Positions 6,365 to 49,122 of a stretch of DNA of 49,548 nt are shown piece after piece (the first letter of the stretch is position 1; every line of letters starts with the position of its first letter). The notes beneath the pieces were generated by a model. That model was not told where the DNA came from. It did not search any database and saw only the letters and a program-made list of their open reading frames with translations. The stretch is from Eledone cirrhosa (Eukaryota): positions 1 to 49,548 of the forward strand of contig CAXHJY010000700.1 of NCBI GenBank assembly GCA_964016885.1. Direction: 5' to 3'. The translations under genes were made by a program, and so were the position numbers.

Positions 6365-6575
<211 letters not shown>

Positions 6576-7956: not shown

Positions 7957-7996
<40 letters not shown>

Positions 7997-8633: not shown

Positions 8634-8864
8634 ATTTAGGAACAGTTTAGGTATGATACATTTTATTACTAATTATATCTAAATGTTTCTTCTCTCTTCA
8701 TAATGTATTTTTAACTCTGATACTGGTTCAGTCTGGTTCAAACTGAATTGGTCTGTCCCAGTCATTCATTGAGCAACATCGGTGAAGTTGGCACCCTTAA
8801 CTCACAGTTGGGTGCGGATGCATTCATGTATATATGTGTGTGTCCGCATGTATCTGTGTGTTTC

Positions 8865-9359: not shown

Positions 9360-9978
9360 CGTGTAAATGTTAGTGAAGTCTAACAGTTTAGAGCATATCA
9401 TGATGATAAAATAAATATCACTTTGAAAGTAAAGAACTATAGGTTATAGCCATAGAAACGTGAACAAGTATAACAACAACAAGACAATCATTACTAGCCT
9501 CATACCATGTTTGAAAATATATATGAGCTATATTTGACCATAGATTTTAGTGAGTGCAAAATATATTTGCGTAAATATTTCCGGAAAGTCAGAAGAATAT
9601 GAATTTCAAATCAAGTTTTATTTGTCTGGTTTCTCTTATTTTTCTTTGTCCCTTATATTTTTTTTACCATATACAATTTCCAGGACACCATATAATGTAT
9701 ATTGACAACAGATTAGTAGGTTACTTTATATTGTTTCATTGCTGTTGTTTAGCTCCAGATCAGACCTGGTCACACTGACCTCCGATCAAATAGATTCCAT
9801 CTAATAACATGCTGCGAATTTGTTTATTGTCAGGAATATTATTTCCAAGTCTATATGATATAATATATATATAAACGTTTGTATTTGTAAAGCCAAAACA
9901 ATGCAGGTATGGATATAGAATATAAATGCAAATGCTATTGTTGACAATTAGTCTTTTACCTTAAATTTATTTAAATAT

Positions 9979-10013
9979 CCTTAATTTTCGACATAATATC
10001 TCTTCTTCGGAGG
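9979..10013 (-). ncRNA. Minimal hammerhead-like motif (U4C)
   Basis: CCT CCGAAGA AGAGAT ATT ATGTC GAAA AT TA AGG. Confidence 0.5.
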
Positions 10014-10102
10014 GAAGTAAAGTGGTTAAACCAGCGTTCTAAATAGCTTGCCAAGTCATGACTTGCCAAGCTTTTAGAACGCTGGTTTAACCACTTTACT
10101 TC

Positions 10103-10137
10103 TCTCCGAAGAAGAGATATTATCTCGAAAATTAAGC
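10103..10137 (+). ncRNA. Minimal hammerhead-like motif (U4C)
   Basis: TCT CCGAAGA A GAGAT ATT ATCTC GAAA AT TA AGC. Confidence 0.5.
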
Positions 10138-11030
10138 ATATTTAAATAAATTTAAGGTAAAAGACTAATCGTCAACAATATCTTTTGCATTTGCATTTAT
10201 ATTCTATATCCATACCTGCATTGTTTTGGCTTTACAAATACAAACGTTTATACCTCATTACACAATGCTTCAAGTGAACTATAACTTCCTCAATATATAT
10301 ATGTATATTTCAACAGTATTCTAATAAATATTGCCTATACAGGTAATAAAAGTGTATATACATTTTTGGGGGACACCCTATATATATATTATATGTACAG
10401 AAAGATTATCTAGTAGCATCTGTTTTTATAGGTTGTTGTTTAGAACGACACCTTCCGTAAATTAGTTGAACTATAATCATAAACTTTCCAGCTGTGATCA
10501 TCCCATGATTTTGGTATATCAGAGACAATTACTCACTATTTTTCCCCCAAGAGATTTGATTGAAAAATACATGATACATGAACAGGTAGAAACGTTCTTG
10601 CCGATTGAAGCGTCAGTTTTAAGTGGCTGATCATAATGTTATAAGTTCAAATATTACTTTTGCATCTATTTTGAAAACTGTTTATGTTGCATTTTTTTTT
10701 TTTTATATAAAAGCAAAAATCATTTATCTATGCTGTTTATTCTACACCGAATTGATCCGTAATTCTTGGACAAGGTTCAGTGATTTGATCCTCTCACAGA
10801 TTTCATTCATTGAAGTGTAGCAAATCTTGAACACTGGCTTTCTATACTAAAGTCAAATACATTAACCATATTACATACAATTAAGTTAGTGTAAATATGT
10901 AATATTAATAGATTTAATGCAGGGTGCATTAAAACGTTAACTAGAAACAAAGAATCAAGCGTATTCAGGAAGCGTTGAACACATTTTAAATTTTGAATTT
11001 TGAACAGTGTTCAATTTTTTATGAATGAGG

Positions 11031-18480: not shown

Positions 18481-19547
18481 ATGTGATTGCATTTAAATAC
18501 ACACACATATTAGTATACATATATTTATATATATATATGTGTGTGTGTGAGACTGCATTTAAATATATACACATATATGTATATAATATATACATATACA
18601 TGTATATATAGACATATACACAAATATGTGTGCATATACATGTATATATAGACATATACACAAATATGTGTGCATGTATATATTTATGTGTGATTGCATT
18701 TAAATACGCACAAATATATGTATATAATATATATATTTATATATATAAATAAATGTGTGTATGCATATATTTATGTATGATTGTATTTAAATGCACACAC
18801 ACATACATAGATACATATATATATATATATATATAATATATATAAAATATATATATATGTATGTATGTGTGTGTGTGTATGTATGTGTGTATGTATGTAT
18901 GTATGTATGTATGTGTGTGTGTGTCAGCTATATTATTCATATATAAACATACAAAATGTCCAAGAGAACAGTGAAACTATCAGCAACATCATTAAATGTG
19001 TTACTAAATACGATGTTCAAATATCTATTTATAACATTAAATGATGAATTAATGATGTCGACATTGCCTTCATCTACCGCCCCGACCCTGGGGGCCACCA
19101 GCCATGACAAAAGAGAGAAAGGAAGAACAATAGAAGGACTTCAAAGGAGAGTTGAGAGTAGTTAGGGCTGGTGTAAGAATGGTATAATAGCCTTGTTGTA
19201 ATATCTTGATTTAAGGAATCGATCAATGTCCAGATGGTACCCTAATAGGATCCGTCTTACATGGGTGTGTAGTAAAACTGTTTCTATCTCTCTCACCTTT
19301 CACTCTCAACGCAAAATTCCCTCTCTCTCTCTTCCGTTATATATATACACAGACATAGATAGATATATGTGTGTGTGTCGGTGTGTATATATATACACTC
19401 ATAAACTCAAACACGCAGACGTAATGTCTGTGATATATATATATATATATATACACACACATATACACACACATATACACACACCCACACACACACATAT
19501 ACACAGCCACACACATATATACACACACACACATATATACACACACA

Positions 19548-19668
19548 CTGAAGAAGGGCTTATGCCCGAAATATCGTCCCCCCCCACTCTCAAGAGCGTG
19601 AAACTAATAAACCTAATAAACCTTTGTTCGTACTGCCCCTCTGTTGTGTTCCCGTTCCATTTTTCACT
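19548..19668 (+). ncRNA. PLE-type hammerhead core (5' strand of stem I lost) plus tail
   Basis: CTGAAGA A GGGC TTAT GCCC GAAA TATC GTC CCC; tail ends in (TA)n. Confidence 0.7.
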
Positions 19669-19692: not shown

Positions 19693-19886
19693 ATAGGAAA
19701 AAGTATGACCCCGACCGCAGAGCTCAAGCTGTTTCAATGGCTATTTCTGGACTGAAATAGACGTTGAAACGGCTTGAGCTGTGCCGTCGGGGTCATACTT
19801 TTTCCTATTTCCCACTCTACTACCCTAAGTATTGAGTACTCTGGTGCGTTATGGTCCATCTGGTTCCTTACCACACCTCCTTCGTT
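19693..19886 (+). mobile_element. Fold-back element (hammerhead stem II and 3' half) plus tail; family shared with 28050 and 34175
   Basis: Hairpin 19693-19808; right arm GAAAC GGC..GCC GTC GGGGTC; tail 19809-19886; flanked by TA. Confidence 0.8.
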
Positions 19887-19997
19887 ATATATATATGTGT
19901 GTGTATATGTGTGTGTGTATATATATGTATGTGTGAGTGTGTGTGAGTGTGTGTGTATATATGTGTGTGGCTGTGTATATCTGTGTGTGTGGGTGTG

Positions 19998-20042
<45 letters not shown>

Positions 20043-20075
20043 GTGTGGCTGTGTATATCTGTGGGTGTGTATATA

Positions 20076-20110
<35 letters not shown>

Positions 20111-20520
20111 CACAGACATTACGTCTGCGTGTTTGAGTTTATGAGTGTATGTGTGTATGTGTTTCTATTTAATTTACATTAGGATATATATATATATATA
20201 TATGGATATATATATATGTATATACATGTATGTTTGCGTGTGTATATAAAGATCTGGTTTACTGTTGTTATTGTCGTTATTGTTGTTATTGCTGAAATTA
20301 TAGAAACAACACACTATGTAATGAAACGGGGTTGTTATTGCATCCATATTGTCATGAGGGACAATAACATCACCATCGTTTACTACTACTACTACTGCTA
20401 CTGCTGCTACTACTGCTGCTACTACTACTGCTACTACTACTACTACTACTACTACTACTATCTTCGCACCCAAATATAGAAAAACATGTATATACACATG
20501 CGTATATTTATATATATAAG

Positions 20521-20735
20521 GATCGATCGACTTTCGTCAAATCGGACCGAGGAAACAATGTTTCCGTTGGTCTTTCCAGTTGCTAATACTATCTATCTGT
20601 CGCAACTCCAGGTAGAAGGAGCAACGTGAAATAAAGTGTCTTGCTCAAGGACATAACGCATCGCCCGGTCCAGGAATCGGACTCACAATCTCAAGATTGT
20701 GAATCCAATTCTCTAACAACTTAGCCACACGCGTT

Positions 20736-20737
<2 letters not shown>
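20521..20737 (-). mobile_element. tRNA-derived CORE-like SINE
   Basis: Close reverse complement of 22948-23165. Confidence 0.9.
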
Positions 20738-20783
<46 letters not shown>

Positions 20784-20789
20784 TTAGCA

Positions 20790-20832
<43 letters not shown>

Positions 20833-21003
20833 GTATGTGTGTATATATATATATATATATAATTCGACACTATATATTTTATCTAATGATTCTTTGCACT
20901 TACATTTTTATATATATTATATATATACATATTCTACACTTCTATGTATCCATGTGTCTATATATATGTATATGTGTATGCTTAAATACACACACACACA
21001 CAT

Positions 21004-21040
<37 letters not shown>

Positions 21041-21359
21041 AGTACACACATATATTTATTTATATATACATATCTATCTATCTATCTATATCTATCTCTC
21101 CTTCTCTATACATATATACACCCCACACACACACGCACACACATACACGCACACACACATACACACACATATAATTTCTCGTTCATCATCTCCCATCTGA
21201 CGTCCATATTTGCTATATTAGATATCGTCAAGAAAACACTGAAGGTTTTTATGAGGCTGTATTTTACTTAATCTTCCTTTCATAAAATCTGGAGGTTTCT
21301 TTTGTGGTCCCTGTTTCTGTAAACAGGGATCCCGGATGCCAGCTGTTAGGAAACAAGGG

Positions 21360-21475
21360 ACAATAACAGTAACAACAACATCAGCCACAATAACAGTAAC
21401 AACAACATCAGCCACAATAACAGTAACAACAACATCAGCCACAATAACAGTAACAACATCAGCAACAATAACAGG
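21360..21475. repeat. 27-bp minisatellite, about 4 copies
   Basis: acaataacagtaacaacaacatcagcc repeats. Confidence 0.9.
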
Positions 21476-21519
21476 GATATTTACATAAGTTGCCACGTTA
21501 ATGCAAGTAGTGACACAGG

Positions 21520-22035
21520 ATGAAGGGAGAGGCGGAGAAGAGGAAGAAGAAAAGAAAAAAGAAGCTAGAAGACAAAGAAGAAAGATGAAGGAAAAGAAAA
21601 AAAGATGAAGAAAAGAAGAGGAGGAAGGTGGAGGAGATGAGGGGATGACGGACAAGATTATGAAAAGGAAGAAAATAGAGGAATAGCAATTACAAAACAA
21701 CAGAAAATTGATGAAGAAAAAGATGAAGAAAGAAAAGGGTGGGAAGGTGACGATAACAACAACGATGATGATGATGATGTGGAGGAAGGGGAGTGTGAGG
21801 ATGTGGAAGAGTAGAAGCAAGATGCTGCCGTTGGGTAAGAAAAAAAGAAATTAAGAAGAAAAGTAGTAGTAACAGTAGTAGTAGTAGTAGTAGTGGAAGG
21901 AGGACAAGGGGAGGAAGGAGTAATTAAAGAAGTAGAAGATAAAGTAGAATAAGAAGAAATAGAAGAAAACGAGAAGAATGATCAAATCATAATCATCGGC
22001 AACAAGAAAAAATACAAGAACAACAACCACCACAA
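21520..22035. repeat. Purine-rich (GAA/GTA) low-complexity tract
   Basis: Seen directly. Confidence 0.85.
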
Positions 22036-22107
22036 CATCTAATCTCCCAATAAACTTATATCGATATACTCAAAAACAAACACAAGCTAAACACATGAAA
22101 TACAATG

Positions 22108-22303
22108 ATTTCTAATATAGGCACAAGGCCAGCAATATTTGGGGGAGAGGGAAAGTCCATTAAATCGAAACCAGTACGTTACTGGTACTTCATGTTATCG
22201 ACTCCATAAGGATGAATGGCAAAGTTAACCTCGGCGTAAAGGACCGTAACTTAATGCTGCAAAGCATGGTGTCCTACTCTACGGATACTGTCAATCCACC
22301 GCC
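22108..22303 (-). mobile_element. SINE family B with internal deletion
   Basis: Family B body ending ccaccgccc. Confidence 0.85.
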
Positions 22304-22533
22304 CTAAACTCATGAAATACAATAACAAAGGTAGATAAGACTTCAATACAACATTTAAGATGGACCTGGGAAGAGGCGGTTTCGATCTCCGGCGAGATTG
22401 AATAATCTATTTCAGTTTAATAATTTAATTAATAACCTTCAGAAAAGAAATGTTAGCAAGTCTGGACTAACCACCCTCTCTCTTTCTCTCTCTCTTTCTT
22501 CACGTAACTTCACGTTTCACTCCCTGTAGAAAC

Positions 22534-22566
<33 letters not shown>

Positions 22567-22570
<4 letters not shown>

Positions 22571-22669
22571 AATTTGAAGACTAAAATCCAAAGAGGACTC
22601 GATAAGGATAAATATATATCAAATATATAAGAACCATAGAGCAAATATTTATTGAAATAACATTAATAA

Positions 22670-22700
<31 letters not shown>

Positions 22701-22901
22701 GTTAAATAAAAGTCAAATGATTAAAATTTAGCTTCGTTTATTACTGCTATATATATTTCAGTGACAGCCATCTTTGGCTGTGACCTCTTCAGGCAGTTTG
22801 AATTAGTATGGTATAGACAAGTACATATGTTGTTTAGGTGTATGATATTGTCAATACTCTGATATGCCCAGTTCCTTGTTGGGTTGTTAATTCACTGGGG
22901 A

Positions 22902-22902
<1 letters not shown>
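22567..22902 (-). mobile_element. PLE-type 3' end (hammerhead plus tail) in (TA)n
   Basis: TA runs on both sides; contains the hammerhead at 22743-22797. Confidence 0.7.
22743..22797 (-). ncRNA. Type I hammerhead ribozyme
   Basis: ACTGC CTGAAGA GGTCACAGCCA AAGA TGGCTGTCACT GAAA TATATA TA GCAGT; perfect 5-bp stem I, palindromic stem III. Confidence 0.85.
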
Positions 22903-22947
<45 letters not shown>

Positions 22948-22949
<2 letters not shown>

Positions 22950-23165
22950 GAAGGCGTGTGGCTGAGTGGTTACAGAATTGGATTCACAATCTTGAGGTTG
23001 TGAGTTCGATTCCTGGACCGGGCGATACGTTATGTCCTTGAGCAAGACACTTTATTTCACGTTGCTCCTTCTACCTGGAGTTGCGACCAATAGATAGTAT
23101 TAGCAACTGGAAAGACCGATGAAAACATTGTTTCCTCGATCCGATTTGACGAAAATCGATCGATT
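22948..23165 (+). mobile_element. tRNA-derived CORE-like SINE
   Basis: A-box tggctgagtgg, B-box gagttcgattcc, CORE-like tgtccttgagcaagacactttatttcac. Confidence 0.92.
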
Positions 23166-23214
23166 AAAAATATATATATATATATAAATATATAGAGAAA
23201 GAGAGAGTGAGAGA

Positions 23215-23350
23215 AATGGCCTCTACAGGACTAGAACTGGAAATCAACACATGTTCTAGTCCTGTAGAAGCCATTGCTATATTAAACATTTATACTCTGC
23301 TATGTATTGAGTACCTTACTTAATGTGGTTACCCGCAATTGAACATGGGA
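23215..23350 (+). mobile_element. Short fold-back plus tail (PLE-type end)
   Basis: aatggcctctacaggactagaac / gttctagtcctgtagaagccatt, then tail with ttgagtacc. Confidence 0.55.
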
Positions 23351-23394
23351 TACATGGGATAAGTAAATAGAAATAACAAATCTCCCTTGTATTA

Positions 23395-23507
23395 TGTTCA
23401 AATCCTGCCGAGGTTAACTTTGCCTTTCATCCTTACGGGGTCGATAAAATAAAGTACCAGTAATGCACTGGTTAATTGCTGGCCTTGTGCCAAAAAGTAG
23501 AAACAAT
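23395..23507 (+). mobile_element. 5'-truncated SINE family B
   Basis: gttcaaatcctgccgagg...ggccttgtgcc...gtagaaacaatt. Confidence 0.9.
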
Positions 23508-23520
23508 TATATATATATAT

Positions 23521-23763
23521 ATATACGATATTAACAAATGGAAACTATATTTATAAAACCATATCTATTTTATTATACATATTTCAAGGATACCATGTTA
23601 AATTATGGTATCCTTGAAATATGTATAATAAAATAGATATGGTTTTATAAATATAGTTTCCATTTGTTAATATCGTATATTTACTCCAAATACTTGTCGA
23701 GTGCTTTATATCAGTTATAAAAAATATTTGCTTGTTGTATCCCAACAATTTAAATAGAACTTT

Positions 23764-23767
<4 letters not shown>
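23521..23767 (+). mobile_element. Fold-back element with apex in hammerhead stem II, plus tail; same family as 37372
   Basis: Perfect ~75-bp arms around a 10-nt loop at ~23596-23605; right arm GAAA TATGTA TA ATAAAATA. Confidence 0.85.
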
Positions 23768-23802
<35 letters not shown>

Positions 23803-24418
23803 GTGTGTGCGTGTATAGCAGCAGCATTGTCAACTGTTACAAGGGCGAAGGAAATGCTCTGAAAAGGGGAAACATTTGAGACATCAAGCTGATGTATATA
23901 CGTATAATTGAGATGAGTCTTATATTTAAAAACGTGCCTTAATTCTATTAAACACTGTGATGCAGTTTCTGAATATTTCACAAAGTGTCGCCACTTCGAC
24001 AAATATTTACTGATAAATGGAAAATCATTATCATCACATACACTTGTGATTCATCCGTTCTACACGATATATCGTTTACATTAAAACAACTGCGCTGGTC
24101 TTCTCATCCTATCTCTAAACCTCCATTTGTAATAAACGTTAGATACATACCTTAATAACTATATACCTATATACCTACGTAAAAATATATCTAGATAAAT
24201 ACATATATATATATATACTGACATATATATATATTCTGGTACATATATGTATGTATATATATATAGAGATACACTCATACACATATGTATGTATATGTAT
24301 ATATAACTATATATGATATTTAGCAGAATATATGAACAGACACACACACAGGCACACATATATTTATGTATGCATACACACATATATATAGTCTTCACAT
24401 TTATTATTTCTATATATA

Positions 24419-24510
24419 TTTATATATTCATACTGAAATAAGTATGTCACATTATGTATATATATATATAATATGACATACTTATTTCAGTATGAATATA
24501 TATATATATG
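24419..24510. repeat. Short inverted repeat around a TA core
   Basis: tatattcatactgaaataagtatgtca / tgacatacttatttcagtatgaatata. Confidence 0.85.
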
Positions 24511-25018
24511 CATGTATATATATATGTGAGTGTGTGTGTGAGTGCATGTATATATATATATATATATATATATATTGATATATATATATATATATATATA
24601 TGTATGGATTGTGTGCTGATAATATAGATAATATATAGACAAAACTCTGATGTAGATCAATGGAAGTCGTTAAGAGAAAGTATTGCCCAATATTGGCAGT
24701 ATTAATAATCTAAGAACGGAAGTTAGTGAGGTTCTTTGAAGTATTCTATCGATTTAGTTAACCCGAGTACTGGGTTTGACCTCGCTCCGGGCATGTGTGA
24801 GAGGTCAACCACCTATCTTTTAAATCCAAATAGGATATTTCAAGCATGAAAGAGAATGAATATACAGGAAAATCAATGGAAATTATAACGAACTTCTTTA
24901 TATTTTATGTACGTGTACGTACGTCGTTCGGGCGGATGTATATATGTACATATATATGTATATACGTATATACATACATATATATGTGTGTGTATATGTA
25001 TATGTACTCCACACACAA

Positions 25019-25112
<94 letters not shown>

Positions 25113-25605
25113 GTACACACATATACATACTTACATGCATATATATGTATATGTATGCGGATGTATAAGTATATATATGTATATCTATATGTATAACGAT
25201 TACGTAGATATGACACTGAATATAATTACTGGTGACTTATGCTTTGTCTTGTGACTGTACACAGTAATGAAATGGAAGAACCACCAGGCTATTATGTATG
25301 AGTGTATACTTGGTTTTACTTGGAAAATGTAAAGATGGCTGCATTCTTACTTTCTAGAATAATTTTGAATAAAAAACTATTATGTTTAGCTTGAGGATAA
25401 TATATATAGAACCTAAGAATAAATATTAAAAGTTAATGTTACGTGGGCAGTAATTTTGGCCTTAAAGATTGATACCATGTCTGATACACCTGTTGGTTTT
25501 CCGATACAAAGCTGATTGTTTTAAAGAGTTTATACATATGTAAAACAGCTCTATTTTAATCATACAAAGAACCTCTAAGTTATGTTCCAAATAGGAGATA
25601 TAATG

Positions 25606-25797
25606 GTTTCTGATTTAGGTACAAGGCCAACAATTTGTGGGAAAGGAAAGTCGATTAAGTCGATTCCAGTGCGTTCCAGGAACTTTATTTTATCTACCCG
25701 TAACCTCGGCGGGATTTTAACTCATATCATAAAGGGCGGTAACTCTATGCCACAAAGCATGGTGTCGGACGCTCTACCGATACTGCCTATCCACCGC
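25606..25797 (-). mobile_element. Degenerate SINE family B
   Basis: ggtacaaggcca...aacctcggcgggatttt...ctctaccgatactgcc. Confidence 0.8.
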
Positions 25798-26279
25798 GCT
25801 AAATCCAAATTATAATGAAAGTAATTTAGTTATATTTCTAATTCCATACCATTTTTTGATTATTTAAAAAATTATTTGAAAATCAACGACATTGTCTTTC
25901 TAATATGAATAGCGGAGTAGTTTAATTATTGTAGTATATCTTTAAAGAAGGAGAAAATGTGACATGAAATAAATAAATTTAAGTGATACTTTAATTTGAT
26001 ATTGATATTATTGTTTCTCGTGTCAATACGTATCAGCTTTTGACTTTCGCTTGGCAAACATCAGCGGCGTGGAGTATAGAAAATGGCGCACAAGGGTGAA
26101 CTTTCCAAGTGCAAACCTATGTTACTGTATATTAATGCGAGAAACATAATATCTAATAGGCATATCTACGTCCACAAACACACAAGTAGGAATATCAAAC
26201 ATGTATAACTTCCAAAACATAAACTGTCATAAGGAGTGAACACCTGCCTATCATATTGACGCATTGATAACACCCAGCG

Positions 26280-26339
<60 letters not shown>

Positions 26340-26497
26340 TTGAGAAGGGGGAAGATTTGTGCCTGTAGTGATGGTTTCAGACGGAATATGAAGAATTGGG
26401 TCCGTGTTGAGATATCGGAAGAAACATGAGAATGAATGAAGAGTTGAATGTAAAAAAACTTTTACGTGTATTGTGTGTGTGTGTGCTTGTGCCTGTA

Positions 26498-26882
26498 CGT
26501 GTGTATATGGACATATATATGTGTGTGTGTCTGTTTGTGCGTGTATATATAGATTTATGTGTGTGTCTGTTTGTGCATATATATATAGATTTATATGTGT
26601 GTGTGTGCGTGTGTATATGGACATATATATGTGTGTGTGTGTCTGTTTGTGCGTGTATATATAGATTTATGTGTGTGTCTGTTTGTGCATGTATATATAG
26701 ATTTATATGTGTGTGTGTGCGTGTGTATATGGACATATATATATGTGTGTGTGTCTGTTTGTGCGTGTATATATAGATTTATGTGTGTGTCTGTTTCTGC
26801 ATGTATATATATATTTATATGTGTGTGTGTGCGTGTGTATATGGACATATATATGTGTGTGTGTGTCTGTTTGTGCGTGTAT
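26498..26882. repeat. ~110-bp minisatellite, about 3.5 copies
   Basis: gtgtatatggacatatatatgtgtgtgtgtctgtttgtgcgtgtatatatagatttat... recurs four times. Confidence 0.9.
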
Positions 26883-26883
26883 T

Positions 26884-26914
<31 letters not shown>

Positions 26915-27302
26915 ATATATGTGTGTGTGTATATATGTATATATGTGTGTGTGTATATATGGATATATATACATACATATTATGGAAGTATGCATGTATG
27001 TATATATATTTATACGAATATACACACTCTCACACACATTATACACACATACAGAGACATATAAAATATGTATTTATATTGATGAATATATATGTATTAT
27101 ATAATATATATATATATATATATGAGGGTGTATGTGTGTATGAATGTATGTATACGTGCATGTATGTTTGTATGTATAGGTACACACACACGCGCACACA
27201 CACACACACGTATATATAATATACATGCAGATACGCATTTATATTAATGTATAATCTGTGACCTGTAAGATCCTGTGTGCGTCATTTGTATAACCTTCAT
27301 AC

Positions 27303-27356
27303 ATAGTCATCTTCACAGCCGACTTTCACCGGAAGCTGTGCTGACGTGTCAGCCAT
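27303..27356 (-). CDS. Candidate first coding exon MADTSAQLPVKVGCEDDY
   Basis: aaagATGGCTG context, CTTCCGG and TGACGT motifs, donor gtatga; no homology recognised. Confidence 0.25.
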
Positions 27357-27476
27357 CTTTGCTCCTGTGTTCCGAATTGATGGGGAAATTGAATATAATA
27401 AACATTTAATATTGCACTGCGAATAGTTAATGAGTCCTCTGTGTTTTCACAATGATTTCCGCACATATGTCTTTAG

Positions 27477-27584
27477 ACTGTAGCACCGAACAGGAAATGG
27501 AATCTTGTAAAAGGCTGTCTGAAATTGGTTTCACAAATGTCACTGACGTAACAACTACAGTCTTCGAACGAGAAATGCAATACT
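27477..27584 (+). CDS. Candidate 108-nt phase 1-1 exon (CSTEQEMESCKRLSEIGFTNVTDVTTTVFEREMQY)
   Basis: Acceptor gtctttag, donor gtaaat, open frame with normal composition; no homology recognised. Confidence 0.3.
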
Positions 27585-27662
27585 GTAAATTTCCAATAAA
27601 TTCTGAAAACAAAATAGTAAAATTATTGAATAGCCAGATGCATAATCATAACCGCACACACG

Positions 27663-27711
<49 letters not shown>

Positions 27712-28049
27712 TGATGATGAGTATGAACAAGCATACACTCATCTCTCTCACTACACACACACTTTTATATATATAGTATGCTACTATTAAAAAAAAATTG
27801 TCTGCTTACTTCATATCTCTATATGAATGTTAGATGGATGTAAGATTTTTATCTCCGTCTAACACTATTGCTTGAAACCTTCTTTTTTATTGTTGTTGTT
27901 GATAAAGTGTCCAATTAGGTAGGAGTTGTTCACAAGCCGTCGTTGTATCCGACATATGAAACAGTAAACCTTCCAACAAACGTCTGGTACAAGTGAATAT
28001 TCAAATGAACAACAATTTAATACTACTCGAACCACCATCAATAATATAT

Positions 28050-28165
28050 ATAACGAAGGAAATGTGGTAAGGAACCAGGTGGACCATAACGCACCAAAGT
28101 ACTCAATACTTGGTCCAGAATTAGCCGTCGAAACGGCTTGAGCTCAGCCGTCGGGGTCTTACTTG

Positions 28166-28168
<3 letters not shown>
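28050..28168. mobile_element. Fragment of the 19693/34175 family (inverted tail joined to forward hammerhead 3' half)
   Basis: 28050-28110 is the reverse complement of the family tail; then gtccagaattagccgtcGAAACggc..gccGTCggggtc. Confidence 0.8.
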
Positions 28169-28200
<32 letters not shown>

Positions 28201-28271
28201 GCCGAGTTTTCATATTTTCCTGAGAATCCTAATACACTCCCGTCTCAAAACTCTATTTTCGAGTTAATTTA

Positions 28272-28324
<53 letters not shown>

Positions 28325-28432
28325 GTATAGAAATATCGTATTTCTAAAAAAAACAGGGTTTTAGGAAGCCGTAGCTAGGCAAACACAAGGGCTAACGCCC
28401 TCTGGTGGTGTCCAGCAGAAGCAAGGGGGACA

Positions 28433-28476
28433 ACCGTCTATGCATTTCAGGCTTGACTGGCCTTCGTCAGGACGGT
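28433..28476 (-). ncRNA. Minimal type I hammerhead ribozyme (intact)
   Basis: ACCGTC CTGACGA AGGC CAGTCAA GCCT GAAA TGCA TA GACGGT; all core positions and stems intact. Confidence 0.9.
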
Positions 28477-28797
28477 CTGTCCCACCGCTTGCGATCGCTG
28501 AACCAGAAGACAGCCGAGAATATATAGTTTTCTCCTATGTGTAAATGAGGTGATTAATCTCATTTGCTTATGAAGCTGCATAAGTTGGCTCAACTTATAA
28601 TAGAAAAGAAATAAGATTTTGCGTCAAGCATAGCTTTATACAAATATGTATAGAAATTTCGTATTTCTAAAGAAACACGCCCTCTGGTGGTGATGCAGCT
28701 TCATAAGCAAATGAGATTAATCACCTCATTTACACAGACGAGAAAACTATATATTCTCGACTGTTTTCAAGTCCAGCAGTCGCAAGCAATAGGAGGG

Positions 28798-28841
28798 ACC
28801 GTCCTGAAGAAGGCCAGTCAGCCCTGAAATGCATAGACGGT
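28798..28841 (+). ncRNA. Minimal type I hammerhead ribozyme
   Basis: ACCGTC CTGAAGA AGGCCAGTCAGCCCT GAAA TGCA TA GACGGT. Confidence 0.88.
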
Positions 28842-28976
28842 TGTCCCCCTTGCTTCTGCATAGACGGTTGTCCCCCATAGCTACGGCTTCCTGAAACTGT
28901 GTTTCTTTAGAAATACGAAATTTCTATACATATTTGTATAAAGCTATGCTTGAAGCGAAATCTTATTTATATATAT

Positions 28977-29007
<31 letters not shown>

Positions 29008-29008
29008 G

Positions 29009-29450
29009 ATTAACTCGAAAATAGCGGCGATCACTGTAGAAATTTTAGTCCAAACCTGAGGGGTTCTCTTGATAGGCTCTAAGCCTCATGGATAATACCA
29101 TGATCGGATATATCCACAAAGTACGAGCGAAACTATCGATAGTCGGGACTAGAGGAATTTTGGTAAAGTTTATATGCATTTTTTTCTTCACACTTATATT
29201 TTAGACTTAAATCCGTTTAATTGATTATTCGTCTAGTTAATTTCTACGGGCTAAGAGGAAAGACGCGATACATTTTATCTGACTGTTCCTCGCGGAAAAT
29301 AGTCTGTATCATTTGTCTATTATTTCTTCAAAGTTACATTTTAAACTTATAGCTCCGTTTAAATGATTATTTATCTGGTTGATTTCTACGGACTAGGGTG
29401 AAGAAAGACTGGGTATATTTTATATAATAATTCTTCAAACTTGCAATTTT
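29009..29450 (+). mobile_element. PLE-type insert with hammerhead and duplicated downstream segment
   Basis: TA-flanked; ctccgtttaa.tgattatt..tct.gtt.atttctacgg.cta...ttcttcaaa occurs twice (~29210 and ~29353). Confidence 0.65.
29065..29148 (+). ncRNA. Hammerhead ribozyme, U3-A8 variant (A9G)
   Basis: TCTC TTGATAG GCTC...GAGC GAAAC TATCGATA GTC GGGA; palindromic stem III ACTATCGATAGT. Confidence 0.7.
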
Positions 29451-29474
29451 ATATATATATTTAAAAAATAACTG

Positions 29475-29675
29475 GAACTCGAAAATAGAGTTTTGAGTCG
29501 CGAGTGTATATATATATATATATATAAAAATTAACTCGAAAATAGAGTTTTGAGTCACGAGTGTATATATATATATAAATTAACTCGAAAATAGAGTTTT
29601 GAGTCGCGGGTGTATATATATAAAAATTAACTCGAAAATAGAGTTTTGAGTCGCGAGTGTATATATATATATATA
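29475..29675. repeat. Four ~35-bp units separated by (TA)n
   Basis: aactcgaaaatagagttttgagtcgcgagtg x4; same motif at 29011 and inverted at ~28240-28270. Confidence 0.92.
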
Positions 29676-30075
29676 CATTATGGCCCGCCCGGCTGGCGTC
29701 CGGCTTGGTATACCTGCTCCTACCACTCCACTGCAAAGATACCACACACCCTCCCGTGTCACATTGTCCTTCCGACTCTCTCTCTCTCTCTGAATAACTA
29801 ACATTTTAATTGTATCTGTCTCTGTCTAATGGCCTATCTCTCTTTTTTCCCCTCCCTCTGTTTTTCTGTCTCTCTCTGTAGATGTGTGTAGTTTTCCTAA
29901 TCTTTCTCTAAATCTCTCTCTTTCTCTCTATGTGTACATATCGAAGGGAGATACGGAAACTAAAACAGTGTTGTCATATAGAGAGTGAAGTGCGACAATG
30001 AGAGAGAGTAAAGCAGTTAAATGCTAGAGAGGGGGAATGATCTTACATATATAGATGCATACATATAAAGTATAG

Positions 30076-30119
<44 letters not shown>

Positions 30120-30520
30120 TATGCTAACAACGACAGAAAAAGTGTGTGGGATACATACATTATTATATTTGTCTGTATTTTCGTTCTGCAACCATTATAT
30201 TATGATATTTGTATCCAAATGATTTTATATGTATGTATTACCTGCTTGCCTGTCCCTCTGTTTCTCTTTCCCTGTCTCTCTCTTTATCTCCTCTCTCCTC
30301 TCTCTCTCTTTAGATGTGTGTGTGTGTGTGTGTAGTTTTCCTAATCTGTCTCTTTCACTCTCTGTCTCTCTAAGAGGGTTGCCTTTTGATGTATGTATTA
30401 CCTGCTTATCGAATTTGAAGGAGGTTATCCTTTTCAAATAAACATACATACGACGCTCAACTCTATCTTGATATATGATATAAATAATGGGATTGATGAG
30501 TTAATATCTCTATACAACAA

Positions 30521-31320
30521 CTACAACAGTACGCGATGGAGCCCACTCGCAACCCCGGCGGACAGAATGGAGAAGGCGTTTCCCCGGAGGACAGCAAGGA
30601 AGACGCGCTGGAAAAGCCACTCCAACTCGCGGGGCTCACACCTGCGGCTGGCCAGCTCAGCGCCTATGGTGGTGAGTAAGGAGGTAGCCCTGGGGCTGAG
30701 GACACCAGAAGTCTCCACAGCCAGGAGTACGACCGCAAACCTGTCGGAGAGCGACTGGTATTTGAGGAGTTTGGCCCCCTCAGCCCGACGTGCAGAGAAC
30801 CTGGGTCAGTCGCAGACTGCACCAGGTTGCGGCTGAAGAAAGTGTCTGTGCAAGTGGAATCCCAGATGAGGGGTTTGCCACTGCGGAACGGGAAGATGGT
30901 CATGCCATCTGGCCTTTTGCCGTCCCCTCGATCCAGCCCCACCGGTGGAATGCGGCCGGCACTGTGGCGACAGGAAAGCGGGTGGAGGCCAAAAGAGTCC
31001 ACGGTGGAATCGCAACGACATTGGTGTGGCTGGCAGATCCGGAGGCCGAGCCTCAGGGAAACTCCGATGCGCAGGCTATGGTTGTCTAGCTGCGTGCCAG
31101 TGGAGAAGGAGGGCAGGGCATGGAGCCAGGCACCATTGTGGGATTTGGAGGCCGCACGAAAACAAGCAAGGCAGTGCTGGTCGAGCTGGCGCGTGAGCCT
31201 TCTGAGGCCAGGCTGCACTGGATGGCATCCCAAGTGCGTTGGGAGGGGGGGACTTGAAGTCAACAGGGGGAGAAGGAGGAGCGACGTCTACTAGGCTAAG
31301 TCCCAGCCGGTCCCACGTCT
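30521..31320 (-). pseudogene. CRE-clade non-LTR retrotransposon 3' remnant (zinc knuckle plus restriction-like endonuclease)
   Basis: GAWLHALP...LRLG...CRC...GLHPLSC...DGKRPDG...LIWDSTCTDT; frameshift near 30795 to AEGAKLLKY...AVETSG...LFQRVFLAVLRGNAFSIL. GC-rich; apparent internal deletion between RIP and PVGL. Confidence 0.85.
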
Positions 31321-31556
31321 TATTATTAAAAAAACTTCTTGCCACTAAACCTTAACCCTTTGTGCCACATTCATCTAACTGTTGACCAACAAATACAAAG
31401 TAAACAGAGCGTTGACAAGAACGATGGCGAATGAATCTTCGAGATAAGCAGCTTCCTCCCGAGCTGTTAGATCACGCGGTATTCTCTGCTACACCTTTCC
31501 GTAATAATACCGAACAACGTACTGCTGGTCACTCCTTCCTCCAAAAGCCGTACAAA

Positions 31557-31645
<89 letters not shown>

Positions 31646-31649
<4 letters not shown>

Positions 31650-34167
31650 CAGAAGTACCTGGCGTTGCCCGGGTGTAAGTTGACCTTTGGTCTGTTAGAA
31701 TGTGTGAAAGTTACTTCCCGCGCATCACAGGTTCAAAACTTCGAACTTCAATGAAAAAAAATAGGTTAGTAGACACAGGTGTGTAATTTATTAATTGTAG
31801 TTACACAGTGTATCATTGAAATTGTTCTCTGCACGACTGACTGAAGTCAAAATCGCTTGATATTGAATGTTCAGTTAATTTAAAGCAGGGTGAAAATGTC
31901 GATTACTTTCAGGGTTTTTTTTTTTTACAATTTTTGCGCTCACATGTGCAGAAGAAGAATTAAAAGGGCCTTTATCTTAACCGCGGCATAATGGCGAGTC
32001 TTTTGTGACAGTTTTCAAGAATATAGGACGTTCCTGTAAAAAGTTTTCCCATGTGTAACTTTGCCTTGTTTTTTGGCGCAAAGTCGAGCCCCGCTTCAGT
32101 TTTATTGATTTTTTACATCAATGCGTGATCTCTGAAGTAGATTTGAGTAGCTAAAAACCCGTCCCGGTAAATTTGCTATAGGTGAAAAAAAGTGTATCTA
32201 GAGTTATTGCCCTTTGCCACAACCTCAAGCCTCGTCTGACGGGATGTTGGTGATTCCTCCGTCAGCGCTTGTTGGCGACGAAGGCGAACATCAACAAGCC
32301 TTGTCGTACGTGATGTTGGTGACTCAACCAGCTGGGAAACACGTCTGTCAGCGAGTCGAGATTCGCGCTCAGCAGGTGTTTCCTAGAGAAAATTAATTAA
32401 TTCTACTGGTTAGCTAAGCCAATGGCAGTGTCAATAGTAAATGAGAAAAGTCTAACATGAACAAAAGGGAATCAAGGTAAGACAATAAATTTAATATAAC
32501 TACGATTAGAATGTTGTAGTTGCTTAAAAGTGGTGACAGTTAGGATAAAGGCAGTACTTGCTAACATTAAGGGAGAATATGGCATAAAGGATTAATCAAT
32601 TGTGAATGAACTCATAACTGAGAACGCCTAATTCGTTGTCTCAAAGCAGTAGCTGTACCTTTTTTGGAGGTAAGTCTTGAACGTTTCCGTGTGGGCATAA
32701 CGACGTGTAACGAAGCTGTTAGGTTAGAGAGAGGTGATTAAATACAGAGAGAGATGACACCAGATTCGTTAGCATGGTTACTGGTGAATGGGAAGGTTTG
32801 GAAATATGATTACAATAACTTACCGAATTTTCCGGTCTATAAATTGCACTTAAAATAATTAAATTTAATCAAAAAACAGCTCTGCGCTTTATACTCCGGT
32901 GAGCCTTATGTATAAATAATACAATGGTAATCAATCACGGCTCTAACAGAAGTAATAGATCTAGACTAAAAGTAAAGAAGATAGCATTTTCCTGGTTGGC
33001 CTTACACGCCGTTGCGCGGACCTGATTTTAAATGATACGCCTTATATCCTGGTGAGCCTTATAGAGCGGAAAATATCTATTGGAAAAGAATACGAATTCA
33101 TGACCAAGGTGTGACAAAATAGGCGTCTATACAGCGCCTGAAACAACGAGAAAAATCCTAGGGTTTTGGACAAGTTTTTTTCAGGCGCTGTATATCCATC
33201 CACCCAAAAGGAACCGTTTTTTAGTTACAAAAAATAACCAAAGAGTATAGTAGCTATATTTCTGACATATCATGCCAAAAAGAACAATATATTCAACAAA
33301 TTTTCTAAAGTACATTCAATCTCTCTTTTTGACCGATATCTTAATAAGCAAGTTATCGATTTTTTATTGGCTGTCAGTGTCTATCTGCATGCAGGTGTGC
33401 ACGTGTGCGCAATTAATTGCAAATACGCTCATAACATTTAGTCGTAAGCAGAACAAAAAATACCATTAGAGGTGGGCTAATAATGAAGACACAAACCCTG
33501 GTGAACTTACGTTTAAACACCCGAAAAGTTACTCACTTCCTGTGCAAAAGACTGTATTATAAATTAAGTAATTTTTTAGAATCTTTTGTTTAAAAAAGGA
33601 AAACATTGGTACGGAAGTAACATTTTTTACAACTTTGTATGTGTACAATACAACTTGGTCAACGTATTATTTAGTAATTTTTTTTCAAAAAGCATGATTA
33701 TTTAAGACTGTTTGAAAATTTACTCATAGCTTTTAGCATCACAAAAGACACCATTAAATTTGGTTCCCTTTTCAGATAGGGATAATACTGTATTTCCACT
33801 TGAATAAGGTGGAATATGAAAAGATAAACTCTTTAATGGTCGGTCGTTTACTGAGACAGCTGGGAAGACATGCAGCTGGCCGTCCAATCAATAACGCACG
33901 TCCTTATATGGGCATATGAAATTTATTTTTATTGCGCCAGATGTAAACTAAGAGTTCTTGTGTTCGAATTCACATAAAATTTCACTGGAATCGAAAAACA
34001 TTCTGTCATAGGGCCCGATTACCGATTTTTCGAAAATTTCAAGTAGCCTATTCCACTCTACGCGTTGAGTTTTATATATGTGTGAGGTTTCATGAAAATT
34101 GGATGAACGGTGTAGCATGCAAGTTGGGAACACCAAACAATGTCCATCTTCCCTTTATATATATAGA
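31646..34167 (-). mobile_element. Non-autonomous Helitron-like element
   Basis: Minus strand starts A|TCtatatatataaaggg (34167) and ends with hairpin acccgggcaacgccaggt plus acttctgctga (CTAG degenerate); intact homologous end at 35221-35251. Confidence 0.65.
32823..33077. mobile_element. Tc1/mariner (Tc2-like) MITE nested in the Helitron
   Basis: TA|ccgaattttccggtctataa ... ttatagagcggaaaatatc|TA; subterminal repeat tata.tcc.gtgagccttat twice. Confidence 0.7.
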
Positions 34168-34174
34168 TATATAT

Positions 34175-34369
34175 ATAGGAAAAAGTATGACCCCGACGGC
34201 AGAGCTCAATGCGTTTCGACGGCTATTTCTAGTCCAGAAATAGCTGTCGAAACGCCTTGAGCGCTGCCGTCGGGGTCATACTTTTTCCTATTTCCCACTC
34301 TACTACCCTAAGTATTGAGTACTCTGGTGCGTTATGGTCCATCTGGTTCCTTATCACAATTCCTTTGTT
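34175..34369 (+). mobile_element. Fold-back element plus tail, same family as 19693
   Basis: Hairpin 34175-34291, tail almost identical to 19809-19886, flanked by TA. Confidence 0.85.
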
Positions 34370-35220
34370 ATATATATATATATATTTGTTATAAGAACAG
34401 ATTAAAGTTTAAGCAAAGAATCGCTGCTTTCAACATTAACGGGATCTTCTGAAACTGAAAAATTTAATCTGTGAACGCAGAAGTAAATATTTCGAGAAAC
34501 GTTGCAACCGAAGGAAAACAGGAAGACGATATTTTGGTTCGTGAAGACGTTCCCTGGTAATGAACGGAAAAAAGCGACGATAATACGTCGTTATGTGGAC
34601 CGAGAAGAACAATTTCCTGCAAAGACAAGACCAAGTTTATGGTGTAAATGGAGTCGTTAGACTAATATTCTATTTAAAATAACCGAATGATTTCTAGCCC
34701 CGGAGTTTAAGAATGATGTAAAGAAAATTGAAAACGAAAATGACAAAGGTTATTAAACTAGTAAAATTAAATAGTGAAGATTTAGGCCAGTACATATGTA
34801 TGACCCGACGGACATACACATACATATACATACGCACACACAAATAGATACACACAAACGCACGCGTAAACCTTATACATTTCTACAGATATAGGTTACA
34901 CTATGTACTTATGTACTTTCTAATGTACTCCGGATGATTATGGGCACTTTCATTTTTCCAGATATTGATTATAGGACCTTTAACCGCTTACTTGGAGGCG
35001 ACTGAAGCACTGCAGTGCAATGCAACAAAACGTCAAAACTTGACACATCGGCTACGTTTATTCTACAGATGATTGTGAACTCTCAGAATTGGCACATATT
35101 GAGTAGGGGACCCTTAGGAGCAGGAACCCCCTTTTGGAAAAAGCAGATGATTTTGTAAAAGTATAGTTATCAAAGCAGCGCTGAAGTATTGACATAAATG
35201 GTATACATAACTGGTATTTA

Positions 35221-37372: not shown

Positions 37373-37676
37373 GTAGAAGTTCTATTTAAATTGTTGGGAT
37401 ACAGCAAACAAATATTTTTATAACTGATATAAAGCACTCAACAAATTATTGGTGTGAAAATACGATATATTAACAAATGGAAACTATATTTATAAAATCT
37501 AGCTTCCAACAGAAATGGTCGCATTCTTTAAGGGTATGTCAATATTTATTTATAAAACTGATCTGTATTATATTTTATCTGAAGAAACCACACCATAATT
37601 TAACTTGGTGTCCTTGAAATATGTATAATGAAATAAATATGGTTTTATAAATATAGTTTCCATTTGTTAATATATC

Positions 37677-37680
<4 letters not shown>
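37372..37680. mobile_element. PLE-type element: inverted tail plus forward hammerhead unit; family of 23521
   Basis: 37372-37497 is the reverse complement of the 23521-family tail; 37460-37497 is inverted vs 37643-37680. Confidence 0.8.
37571..37635 (+). ncRNA. Type I hammerhead ribozyme
   Basis: TATTTTAT CTGAAGA AACCACACCA TAATTTAACT TGGTGTCCTT GAAA TATGTA TA ATGAAATA; two mismatches near the base of stem II. Confidence 0.75.
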
Positions 37681-38814: not shown

Positions 38815-39043
38815 GTATAGGATTATCCAAGATGTAGTAATGGTTAATTACTACACTGAATATGGTTGACGTACGGTAAGAGGTTACTCTACGAGTTATG
38901 GAAGAATTGTTCAAGAAACTTAGTTCCTGATCCTTCAGTATTCCGGAGTGTATATAAAGAATGAATAATAACAGGTAGACATCATAAAAAGGTAATTTAT
39001 TCCGTGTGCTTACAAGTGTTTCCACATTGTAAATTTACCATTC

Positions 39044-39155
39044 TGCTCTGAGGAAACAGTGGTCACAGCATTGGATATTCGAGTTCTGCAAATACTTGTG
39101 AATTTGCACGTAGCGGAACTAGACTGCAGTACCACCGTGGAAACACTTCTAAGCA
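39044..39155 (+). ncRNA. Hammerhead ribozyme with large stem II insert
   Basis: TGCT CTGAGGA AACAGTGGT...ACCACCGTG GAAAC ACTT CTA AGCA; the opposite arm keeps GTA. Confidence 0.6.
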
Positions 39156-39192
39156 CACGGAATAAATTACCTTTTAATGATGTCTACCTGTT

Positions 39193-42148: not shown

Positions 42149-42594
42149 TATGTAGCATCTTTGCTGTTCTTTTATGAATTCTACTGGAAATCATGTAAAC
42201 TCCTCTGAAGAACTTTTTTCTTTTCACCCCGCTTCTATCTTTCTCAATTTCACCTATATATATATGTGTATATATGTATGTGTGTGTAAGTATGCTTTTG
42301 TGTTTTTTTTTGTGTGTGTTTGCATGTGTAGTTTTATTTTATTTTTCCTTTCCTTCTCCCTTTTCCAGCCTCACTTTCATATAGATTGCATTTTTGTTTT
42401 TAGAATCCATATTCAATAAACAAACCAGGATTTTTCATTCTGAGGATTGAAAGCAAAACCTTTTGCTTTTAAGAAACCACTGGTAAATGGAATAATTGCC
42501 TTATGTTGTTTATTACATAATAATAATAATTAAGCTCTGTTGCATACATAGAGCACTCTTTTTTCCTGGACGTTTCCGATGGAATTACTTCATT

Positions 42595-49122
<6,528 letters not shown>

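What the first reader, a model, noticed from the sequence alone, without database searches (positions are those of the whole stretch)
19693..34369. Flip/flop hairpin loop at hammerhead stem II (19693/28050/34175 family)
Two copies have the same left end, arm length and tail, and both fold back at ribozyme stem II, deleting the CTGANGA half. The loop is tggact at 19748-19753 but tagtcca at 34230-34236, which are reverse complements; the 28112 fragment has the gtcca form. Flip/flop loops are known from hairpin-primed replication (parvoviral termini). Inference: stem II acts at the DNA level as a self-priming or strand-annealing site, generating a MITE-like derivative.
Basis: partly seen in the sequence, partly recalled or inferred. 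Interest (0 to 1): 0.8.

Follow-up and report, generated by a model that had tools for sequence, protein, structure and literature searches.

The report
Fold-back Penelope-type repeats, both loop orientations
Short protein-free hairpin repeats sitting in TA microsatellites of an animal genome carry half a hammerhead ribozyme and show their central loop in both orientations, which likely records two DNA copies of a Penelope-like retroelement being joined head-to-head during insertion rather than virus-like hairpin replication.

Summary
The two 195-nt copies are real: 55-nt inverted arms, the same left end, a 79-nt tail on one side only, (TA)n flanks. Their loops face opposite ways but are not exact reverse complements (6 vs 7 nt). 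Only the 3' half of a hammerhead is present; no CTGANGA was seen in the copies or in the read ends shown, unfolded forms included, so 'stem II' is inferred from position. In public runs the family is abundant, reversed apexes recur, and junctions cluster within a few bases of the loop but vary. A second family in the window folds exactly at loop II of an intact core (23525 vs 37579), again reversed relative to its tail; three other core-bearing inverted elements fold elsewhere. The architecture matches published Penelope-like insertions (inverted truncated copy, one-sided tail, palindromic junction, self-priming already proposed). Best reading: two cDNAs primed from opposite target strands are joined near the loop, either donating it. 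Later template-switch inversion is not excluded. Not a MITE, not rolling-hairpin. A new variant of a known kind, useful as a natural readout of Penelope insertion.

The parts
19693..19747 (-). Copy 1, left arm: tail-less inverted copy of the right arm, starting in (TA)n
   Evidence: 50/55 complementary to the right arm
19748..19753 (+). Copy 1, apex loop TGGACT (6 nt), reversed relative to the tail-bearing strand
   Evidence: native orientation taken from unfolded read ends
19754..19808 (+). Copy 1, right arm with the 3' half of a hammerhead-like motif (GAAAC, helix III, GTC)
   Evidence: descriptor match, 4 further pairs; shuffle frequency 0.016 (any) and 0.0024 (GAAAC..GTC) in 5000 shuffles, chosen after the fact
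19809..19887 (+). Copy 1, 79-nt tail present on one side only, ending in (TA)n
28051..28111 (-). Copy 3, distal part of the tail (resumes at the equivalent of 34310)
28112..28117 (-). Copy 3, apex remnant TGGACC read towards the tail: same orientation as copy 1
28118..28172 (+). Copy 3, single tail-less arm of a second sequence variant; best helix III (5 further pairs, palindromic loop TGAGCTCA)
34175..34229 (-). Copy 2, left arm: tail-less inverted copy
   Evidence: 52/55 complementary to the right arm
34230..34236 (+). Copy 2, apex loop TAGTCCA (7 nt; 5 nt if the T-A pair is counted as stem), native orientation
34237..34291 (+). Copy 2, right arm; helix III carries a private change at 34255
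   Evidence: G at 34255 in 2269/2407 and 6966/7199 reads; fails the descriptor
34292..34370 (+). Copy 2, 79-nt one-sided tail ending in (TA)n
23525..23760 (+). Family B fold-back (internal comparison): 79-nt arms, apex = loop II of the 37579 core in reversed orientation, tail on the right only
37384..37680 (+). Family B unfolded relative: inverted tail + 38-nt inverted arm, then a sense copy with an intact CTGAAGA core (37579-37619); its junction is not at stem II

Best explanation
These are short protein-free repeats in (TA)n built as inverted arm + loop + arm + one-sided tail, and they are likely non-autonomous Penelope-like insertions in which two cDNAs, likely primed from opposite strands of the target, were likely joined head-to-head near a small stem-loop that is probably what remains of hammerhead helix II, so that either cDNA would donate the loop. 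Steps: (1) shown: architecture, two fixed outer ends (tail-less and tailed), both loop orientations, clustered but variable junctions. (2) From the literature: a Penelope-type protein nicks and extends both target strands at AT-rich DNA and starts reverse transcription at two sites that bound the tail, on uncleaved RNA. (3) Inferred: one cDNA starts at the tail-less site and becomes the left arm, the other starts at the tail end; both stop near the stem-loop; their 3' ends anneal through a few bases or are end-joined. If the tail-less cDNA supplies the loop the copy reads TGGAC towards the tail (19693, 28050, family B 23525); if the tailed cDNA supplies it the copy reads AGTCC (34175); if the tailed cDNA is short, the right arm is missing (28050 and the junction series in X1). 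[quoted passage not shown]
For: Architecture equals that described for Penelope-like insertions: inverted 5'-truncated copy next to the direct copy, tail at one end only, microsatellite targets (PMC8557442 passages), palindromes at the inverted junction read as self-priming (PMC3846280); cleavage and extension of both strands and two RT start sites bounding the tail (PMC11167929). The tail-less end is a fixed family end: (AT)n follows 34291 in 1369 X16 reads and 88 X1 contigs. 8 of 12 shown junction rows in X1 (36 more not shown) run left arm + T + GG/GGA/GGACA and resume at 8 different places (34268-34321); 4 of the 8 resume inside the tail, so their orientation is unambiguous; 1 shown row has the native letters. 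Apex is variable: one base shorter in 20 X1 contigs and 23 X16 reads (3 starts); G at 34231 in 163 of 288 apex-spanning X16 reads (16 starts) and 43 X1 contigs; one contig folds about 15 nt further upstream. None of the 5 and 3 arm mismatches is shared between copies 1 and 2, while variant letters are matched on both arms of each. Family B repeats the pattern with an intact core for reference. The window holds 6 CTGANGA..GAAA cores against 0.6 expected and further one-sided inverted elements in (TA)n.
Against: No autonomous partner and no intact hammerhead parent of this family was found (no genome held; no CTGANGA in the 23 loose ends shown, 367 not shown). The tail is 79 nt, longer than the 30-40 nt given in PMC8557442. 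Neither window junction is the exact product of pairing through the 6-bp native stem; each is 1-2 bases off (hand comparison). Of 4 other core-bearing inverted elements in the window only 1 has its junction at loop II. The mirror class (short left arm joined to the native loop) is not among the shown joint rows. Reads from a palindrome map to either strand and X16 is a reduced-representation library, so no orientation ratio could be measured. Loop inversion by replication template switching is a documented general process (PMC8794818) and fits a single reversed loop equally well.
Confidence: 0.55

Rival explanations
1. The hairpins are inserted with the native loop; the loop is reversed later, in place, by replication template switching or recombination between the 55-bp arms, and right-arm losses are ordinary palindrome deletions that start at the apex.
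For: Loop-only inversions in hairpins are a documented class of template-switch mutation (PMC8794818 passages). The loop is the only asymmetric part, so an inversion leaves no other trace. Imprecise apexes and centre deletions are expected of long palindromes (own knowledge).
Against: Among shown rows, copies lacking part of the right arm nearly all carry the reversed letters (8 rows against 1 native; also 28050), which a rare secondary flip would not predict. The single family-B hairpin is also reversed. It does not explain the fixed tail-less end or how the hairpin first arose.
Confidence: 0.25
2. Junctions cluster here only because the template RNA of this short family begins about 25 nt upstream of the loop; helix II pairing plays no part (compatible with two-cDNA joining).
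For: Unfolded ends go on into AT-rich sequence ending in AATT, with (TA)n about 25 nt upstream in the X1 consensus, and show no CTGANGA (902 X16 reads, 44 X1 contigs, 1 X9 contig). Junction letters vary and one contig folds further upstream. Other families fold at an A/T run or at palindromes away from the core.
Against: Family B folds exactly at loop II although its relative extends about 80 nt further upstream. Left arms end inside a window of about 5 nt within the loop in 8 shown rows. The loose-end consensus is weak (agreement 0.47-0.51) and only 30 letters are shown.
Confidence: 0.3
3. One reading: one strand self-primes at stem II, and the resulting hairpin amplifies as a MITE-like unit in two forms.
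For: Same left end, arm length and tail in two copies. Self-priming at palindromic junctions is proposed for Penelope elements (PMC3846280). The shorter apex recurs in 20 contigs, so some apex forms may have multiplied as units.
Against: No terminal inverted repeats (7/25, 6/25). No shared arm asymmetry between the two copies. One tail-primed cDNA folding back gives only the native orientation (inference). At least eight different resume points and several apex forms.
Confidence: 0.12
4. Rolling-hairpin replication as in parvoviruses produces true flip and flop ends.
For: Two loop orientations exist.
Against: The forms are not exact reverse complements; the hairpins are internal chromosomal inserts between (TA)n tracts, not ends of a linear single-stranded genome; no HUH-like motif was found in six frames of the window by a recalled pattern.
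Confidence: 0.03

Closest known systems
Inverted (head-to-head) insertions of endonuclease-bearing Penelope-like elements (PMC3846280, PMC8557442)
   Same: Inverted truncated copy next to the direct copy, palindrome at the junction, tail at one end only, (TA)n targets with no readable target duplication.
   Different: Only about 195 nt, no ORF, arms meet directly; tail 79 nt instead of 30-40; loop orientation relative to the tail was not discussed in the text I read.
Minimal and small-helix-III hammerheads of Penelope pLTRs (PMC4209133)
   Same: GAAA, helix III with palindromic loop, GUC triplet; single dispersed motifs and opposite-strand pairs 100-700 bp apart, as at 28470/28804 in this window.
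   Different: The CUGANGA half and a helix II closed next to GAAA were not found for this family; it cannot be a working ribozyme as it stands (inference).
Animal non-LTR retrozymes (bioRxiv 10.64898/2026.07.22.740005)
   Same: Short, non-coding, hammerhead-related, thought to depend on Penelope-like elements.
   Different: Retrozymes are head-to-tail tandem units with complete cores; these copies are dispersed, head-to-head and half-core.
LINE-1 twin priming and joining of two cDNA ends (PMC11702581)
   Same: Both target ends prime reverse transcription; inverted junctions with short microhomology, small deletions or duplications.
   Different: In L1 the second priming is internal and inverts a different part of the RNA; here both arms copy the same segment.
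Parvoviral flip/flop termini (PMC11575299)
   Same: A hairpin centre found in two orientations.
   Different: Here the forms are inexact, internal to the chromosome, and no Rep partner is seen.
Loop inversion by replication template switching (PMC8794818)
   Same: Reverses a hairpin loop and leaves the arms unchanged.
   Different: Sporadic and locus-bound; does not by itself give fixed ends or a one-sided tail.

Membership tests
Penelope-like element (endonuclease-bearing) | ORF with RT and GIY-YIG endonuclease | tested here: not met
   The copies are 120-195 nt; no RT or GIY-YIG motif in six frames of the window by recalled patterns; Pfam found no family above its cut-off in 7 of the 139 listed ORFs that I sent. 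So at most a non-autonomous derivative.
Penelope-like element (endonuclease-bearing) | Autonomous partner sharing the same ends elsewhere in the genome | not testable with these tools
   No genome held.
Penelope-like element (endonuclease-bearing) | Inverted 5'-truncated copy adjacent to the direct copy | tested here: met
   defined in PMC8557442.
Penelope-like element (endonuclease-bearing) | Tail extension at one end only (30-40 nt) | tested here: inconclusive
   One-sided tail present with a fixed tail-less end, but 79 nt long.
Penelope-like element (endonuclease-bearing) | Insertion into simple AT-rich repeats | tested here: met
   All 3 copies are flanked by (TA)n; (AT)n follows the arm end in reads.
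Penelope-like element (endonuclease-bearing) | Target-site duplication | not testable with these tools
   Cannot be read inside (TA)n.
Type I hammerhead ribozyme | CUGANGA core strand | tested here: not met
   Absent from the 3 copies and from the 23 loose ends shown (367 not shown, 30 letters each).
Type I hammerhead ribozyme | GAAA + helix III + UH triplet | tested here: met
   2 of 3 copies match the descriptor; shuffle frequency 0.0024-0.016; the third fails by a private change.
Type I hammerhead ribozyme | Helix II closed next to GAAA, apex = loop II | tested here: inconclusive
   Apex lies 12 nt from GAAAC; intact cores in the window have 4-11 nt. Unfolded ends give only the loop-proximal 4-6 bp.
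Type I hammerhead ribozyme | Self-cleavage | not testable with these tools
   Needs an in vitro assay.
MITE | Terminal inverted repeats at both ends of the element | tested here: not met
   7/25 and 6/25 matches between the true ends.
Parvovirus-type rolling-hairpin flip/flop | Two forms that are exact inverted complements | tested here: not met
   6-nt vs 7-nt loop; several apex forms.
Parvovirus-type rolling-hairpin flip/flop | Hairpins at the ends of a linear single-stranded genome with rep gene and resolution site | tested here: not met
   Internal inserts; no HUH-like motif in the window by a recalled pattern; definition from PMC11575299.
Non-LTR retrozyme | Tandem units each with a complete hammerhead | tested here: not met
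   3 dispersed copies with half cores.

The most novel reading that the evidence does not exclude
Hammerhead helix II has a second job at the DNA level in Penelope-like retrotransposition: the two cDNAs made from opposite target strands anneal through it, leaving a mismatched loop that resolves either way. Flip/flop hairpin repeats would then be a genome-wide fossil record of two-strand priming, and transcripts of such hairpins could keep regenerating the same apex.
Probability: 0.25. Interest if true: 0.65.

Novelty: new variant of a known kind. Interest (0 to 1): 0.38.

Why it matters
How Penelope-like elements make their inverted repeats and one-sided tails is stated as unresolved in PMC8557442 and PMC3846280, and the function of their hammerheads is unclear (cleavage is not needed for insertion in vitro, PMC11167929). 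A very abundant short family whose loop shows which strand supplied the junction gives many natural events for telling two-strand priming from single-strand self-priming and from later inversion, and for testing whether helix II acts as a DNA annealing site. Practically, such copies would be mis-annotated as MITEs or microRNA precursors (Rfam gave the 19700-19801 hairpin a weak microRNA hit).

Tried and rejected
No whole genome is held, so copies could not be counted, oriented genome-wide or put on a tree. Rfam: 0 hits at gathering score; no hammerhead family among the 150 listed of 352 weak hits or among 30 hits for 27990-29000, although two intact cores lie there, so Rfam is uninformative here. 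The repeat finder was swamped by microsatellites. Exact-pattern scans: viral contigs 0 and 2 (I read 1 of the 2, L001, which matches only over the pattern and a few bases and looks like chance in a coding region), genome contigs 0, metagenome contigs 0 twice. No RNA holder listed; not evidence on expression. Runs with small shares that I did not lay (X7, X8, X10-X12) are not used. Earlier findings: nothing by sequence, words or place. Assembly or amplification fold-back artefact rejected: arms differ at 5/55 and 3/55 and the same apex region recurs in independent runs. Copy number not estimated: contig depths are summed and X16 is reduced-representation. Helentron/DINE-like and MITE readings considered and dropped (no terminal repeats; own knowledge for the former). 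Not in print as far as searched: searches returned no paper that, by title or abstract start, describes loop-orientation isomers or fold-backs at hammerhead helix II in Penelope-like elements; subscription journals, Repbase/Dfam entries and all supplements were not seen and may hold such descriptions.
Full report
Setting. The window is animal-type DNA rich in (TA)n and (CA)n; about 36% is low-complexity by my mask. Its dispersed repeats resemble those of octopus genomes, a label that is recalled and comes from no call. No whole genome is held, so the evidence is the window, one laying of four public runs and papers.

The observation. BLAST of the three copies against the window finds only these three. 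Copies 19693 and 34175 share the first base, 55-nt arms (5 and 3 mismatches within the copy) and a 79-nt tail on the right only. They fold at -88 and -98 kcal/mol, z about -18 and -20. The loops are TGGACT and TAGTCCA. The reverse complement of the second is TGGACTA, so the pair is opposite in direction but differs by one base. The 28050 copy is on the minus strand: towards its tail it reads arm, TGGACC, then the tail from the equivalent of 34310. The two true ends of the element are not inverted repeats (7/25, 6/25), so the MITE label fails.

Is there a hammerhead? The right arm holds GAAAC, a 4-5 bp helix with a palindromic loop, and GTC; 2 of 3 copies match my descriptor, which 1.6% (any such motif) or 0.24% (GAAAC..GTC) of 5000 shuffles match, a test chosen after seeing the motif. 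The third fails through a private change at 34255. A palindromic loop 3 is typical of Penelope hammerheads (PMC4209133, parts 1-2 of 4 read). CTGANGA is absent from all three. The window has 6 complete cores against 0.6 expected; their loops II lie 4-11 nt from GAAA, the apex of this family 12 nt. So 'stem II' is plausible by position but not seen.

Public runs (4 of the 18 runs listed; window 34130-34420). 21,348 reads of X16, 15,484 contigs of X1, 306 of X5 and 4 of X9 were laid, so the family is abundant in organism A and present in two other labels; I did not verify that organism A is the window's species (X1 holds 0.56 of the sampled words). (a) The tail-less arm end is a fixed family end: (AT)n follows 34291 in 1369 reads and 88 contigs. 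(b) Unfolded forms exist: before 34230, 902 reads, 44 contigs and 1 contig of X9 run on into AT-rich sequence ending in AATT or CATT; the mirror end in X1 (94 contigs) begins GGACT. This fixes AGTCC as the native direction and shows a 4-6 bp native stem around an 8-nt loop. None of the 23 loose ends shown has CTGANGA (367 not shown; 30 letters each; agreement 0.45-0.51 for these three consensus rows). So the core half seems lost before or apart from folding. (c) Of 12 shown junction rows with inserted letters (36 not shown), 8 run left arm + T + GG, GGA or GGACA and resume at 34268, 34283, 34287, 34288, 34295, 34296, 34297 or 34321; four of these resume inside the tail. One row has the native letters, one folds about 15 nt further upstream, two are other. 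Copy 28050 belongs to this series. (d) The apex varies: one base shorter, as in 19693, in 20 contigs and 23 reads (3 starts); G at 34231 in 163 of 288 apex-spanning reads (16 starts) and in 43 contigs. Because palindromic reads map to either strand and hairpins are probably under-read, no orientation ratio can be given.

Internal comparison. Family B has a hairpin at 23525-23760 and a relative at 37384-37680 that keeps CTGAAGA. The hairpin follows the antisense strand of that core through helix II and loop II and then switches to the sense strand, with the tail on the right. So a fold exactly at loop II does occur, and again with the loop reversed relative to the tail. But the 37384 relative itself, family E (28337-28990) and family F (9870-10252, degenerate core) have their junctions upstream of the core, and other one-sided inverted elements (6705-7965, 38970-39192, 45650-45759, 24414-24509, 7991-8708) show no core match. 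Helix II is thus one junction site (1 of 4 other core-bearing cases), not the rule.

Mechanism. A single cDNA started at the tail and folding back on itself gives the native loop only, and one started at the tail-less end gives no tail (inference). The reversed loop with a tail needs two strands or a later inversion. A Penelope-type protein nicks and extends both target strands at AT-rich DNA, starts at two sites that bound the tail and uses uncleaved RNA (PMC11167929, parts 1-2 of 4 read). Two cDNAs from opposite target ends, joined near the stem-loop, explain the fixed outer ends, the one-sided tail, both orientations, the few-base scatter and the short right arms. Joining of two cDNA ends with short microhomology is described for LINE-1 (PMC11702581, passages). 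None of the arm mismatches is shared between copies 1 and 2, while the letters that mark their variant are paired on both arms; this fits fresh formation at each insertion but two copies cannot prove it. Against: no partner element, a long tail, junctions 1-2 bases off the exact stem-pairing product, and no mirror-class rows among those shown. Loop-only inversion by template switching is documented (PMC8794818, passages) and remains the main rival; it fits less well with 8 reversed rows against 1 native among shown right-truncated junctions. I put two-cDNA joining at 0.55 and a real role for helix II pairing at about 0.25 overall.

Relation to what is known. Inverted truncated copies, one-sided tails and microsatellite targets are standard for Penelope-like elements (PMC8557442 passages; PMC8969392 passages). 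Palindromes at inverted junctions were already read as self-priming (PMC3846280, parts 1-4 of 5 read). Hammerhead-bearing non-autonomous derivatives are known as retrozymes, which are tandem and complete (bioRxiv 10.64898/2026.07.22.740005, part 1 of 5 read). Parvoviral flip/flop concerns terminal repeats of a linear single-stranded genome (PMC11575299, passages) and does not apply. My searches returned nothing that by title or abstract start treats loop-orientation isomers or helix II fold-backs; supplements and repeat databases were not seen. The family works like a non-autonomous Penelope-like element; strict membership is not shown because it has no ORF and no partner could be sought.

Verdict. 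Real, partly misdescribed, and largely an instance of known Penelope-type inverted insertion; the new element is that the loop reports which strand made the junction. New variant of a known kind; interest 0.38.

Noticed in passing
window 19393-19548 and 19890-20150: An inverted duplication of microsatellite-rich flank (137/156 over the aligned part) encloses the minimal hammerhead at 19548 and the 19693 copy; the left arm ends at the first base of CTGAAGA.
   Followed up: partly
window 28337-28990: Large inverted element with two complete hammerhead cores on opposite strands (28470 minus, 28804 plus), the arrangement noted in PMC4209133.
   Followed up: partly
window 22756-22792 (minus), 42440-42476, 19548-19571: Further complete hammerhead cores with helix II of 4-11 bp that Rfam does not report at its gathering score.
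   Followed up: partly
window 9870-10295: 190-nt arms around a short central palindrome, degenerate cores (CCGAAGA) on both arms about 50 nt from the apex, and a tail of about 40 nt on the right only.
   Followed up: partly
window 7991-8708: Inverted arms identical over 221 of 221 bases around a 276-nt spacer: very recent insertion or an assembly feature.
   Followed up: no
window 6575-7965 and 38815-39192: Two copies of one family in (TA)n with inverted arms of very different length (about 530 and 56 nt) and a one-sided extension; no core match.
   Followed up: partly
window 45650-45759, 24414-24509, 23212-23278: Smaller fold-backs; the first has its apex in an A-run/T-run, the second in (TA)n.
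   Followed up: no
window 30480-31290 (minus): A 207-aa frame that looks like the end of a non-LTR retrotransposon protein (recalled resemblance); Pfam gave no hit.
   Followed up: partly
window 42423-42439: The bases just upstream of the 42440 core resemble the loose end of the X9 contig (two 8-base blocks); unexplained, may be chance.
   Followed up: no
run X9, loose end before 34295: One low-depth contig keeps GTC and the G-run after it but has different letters upstream, as if a shorter helix III; hints that the triplet is conserved across relatives.
   Followed up: no
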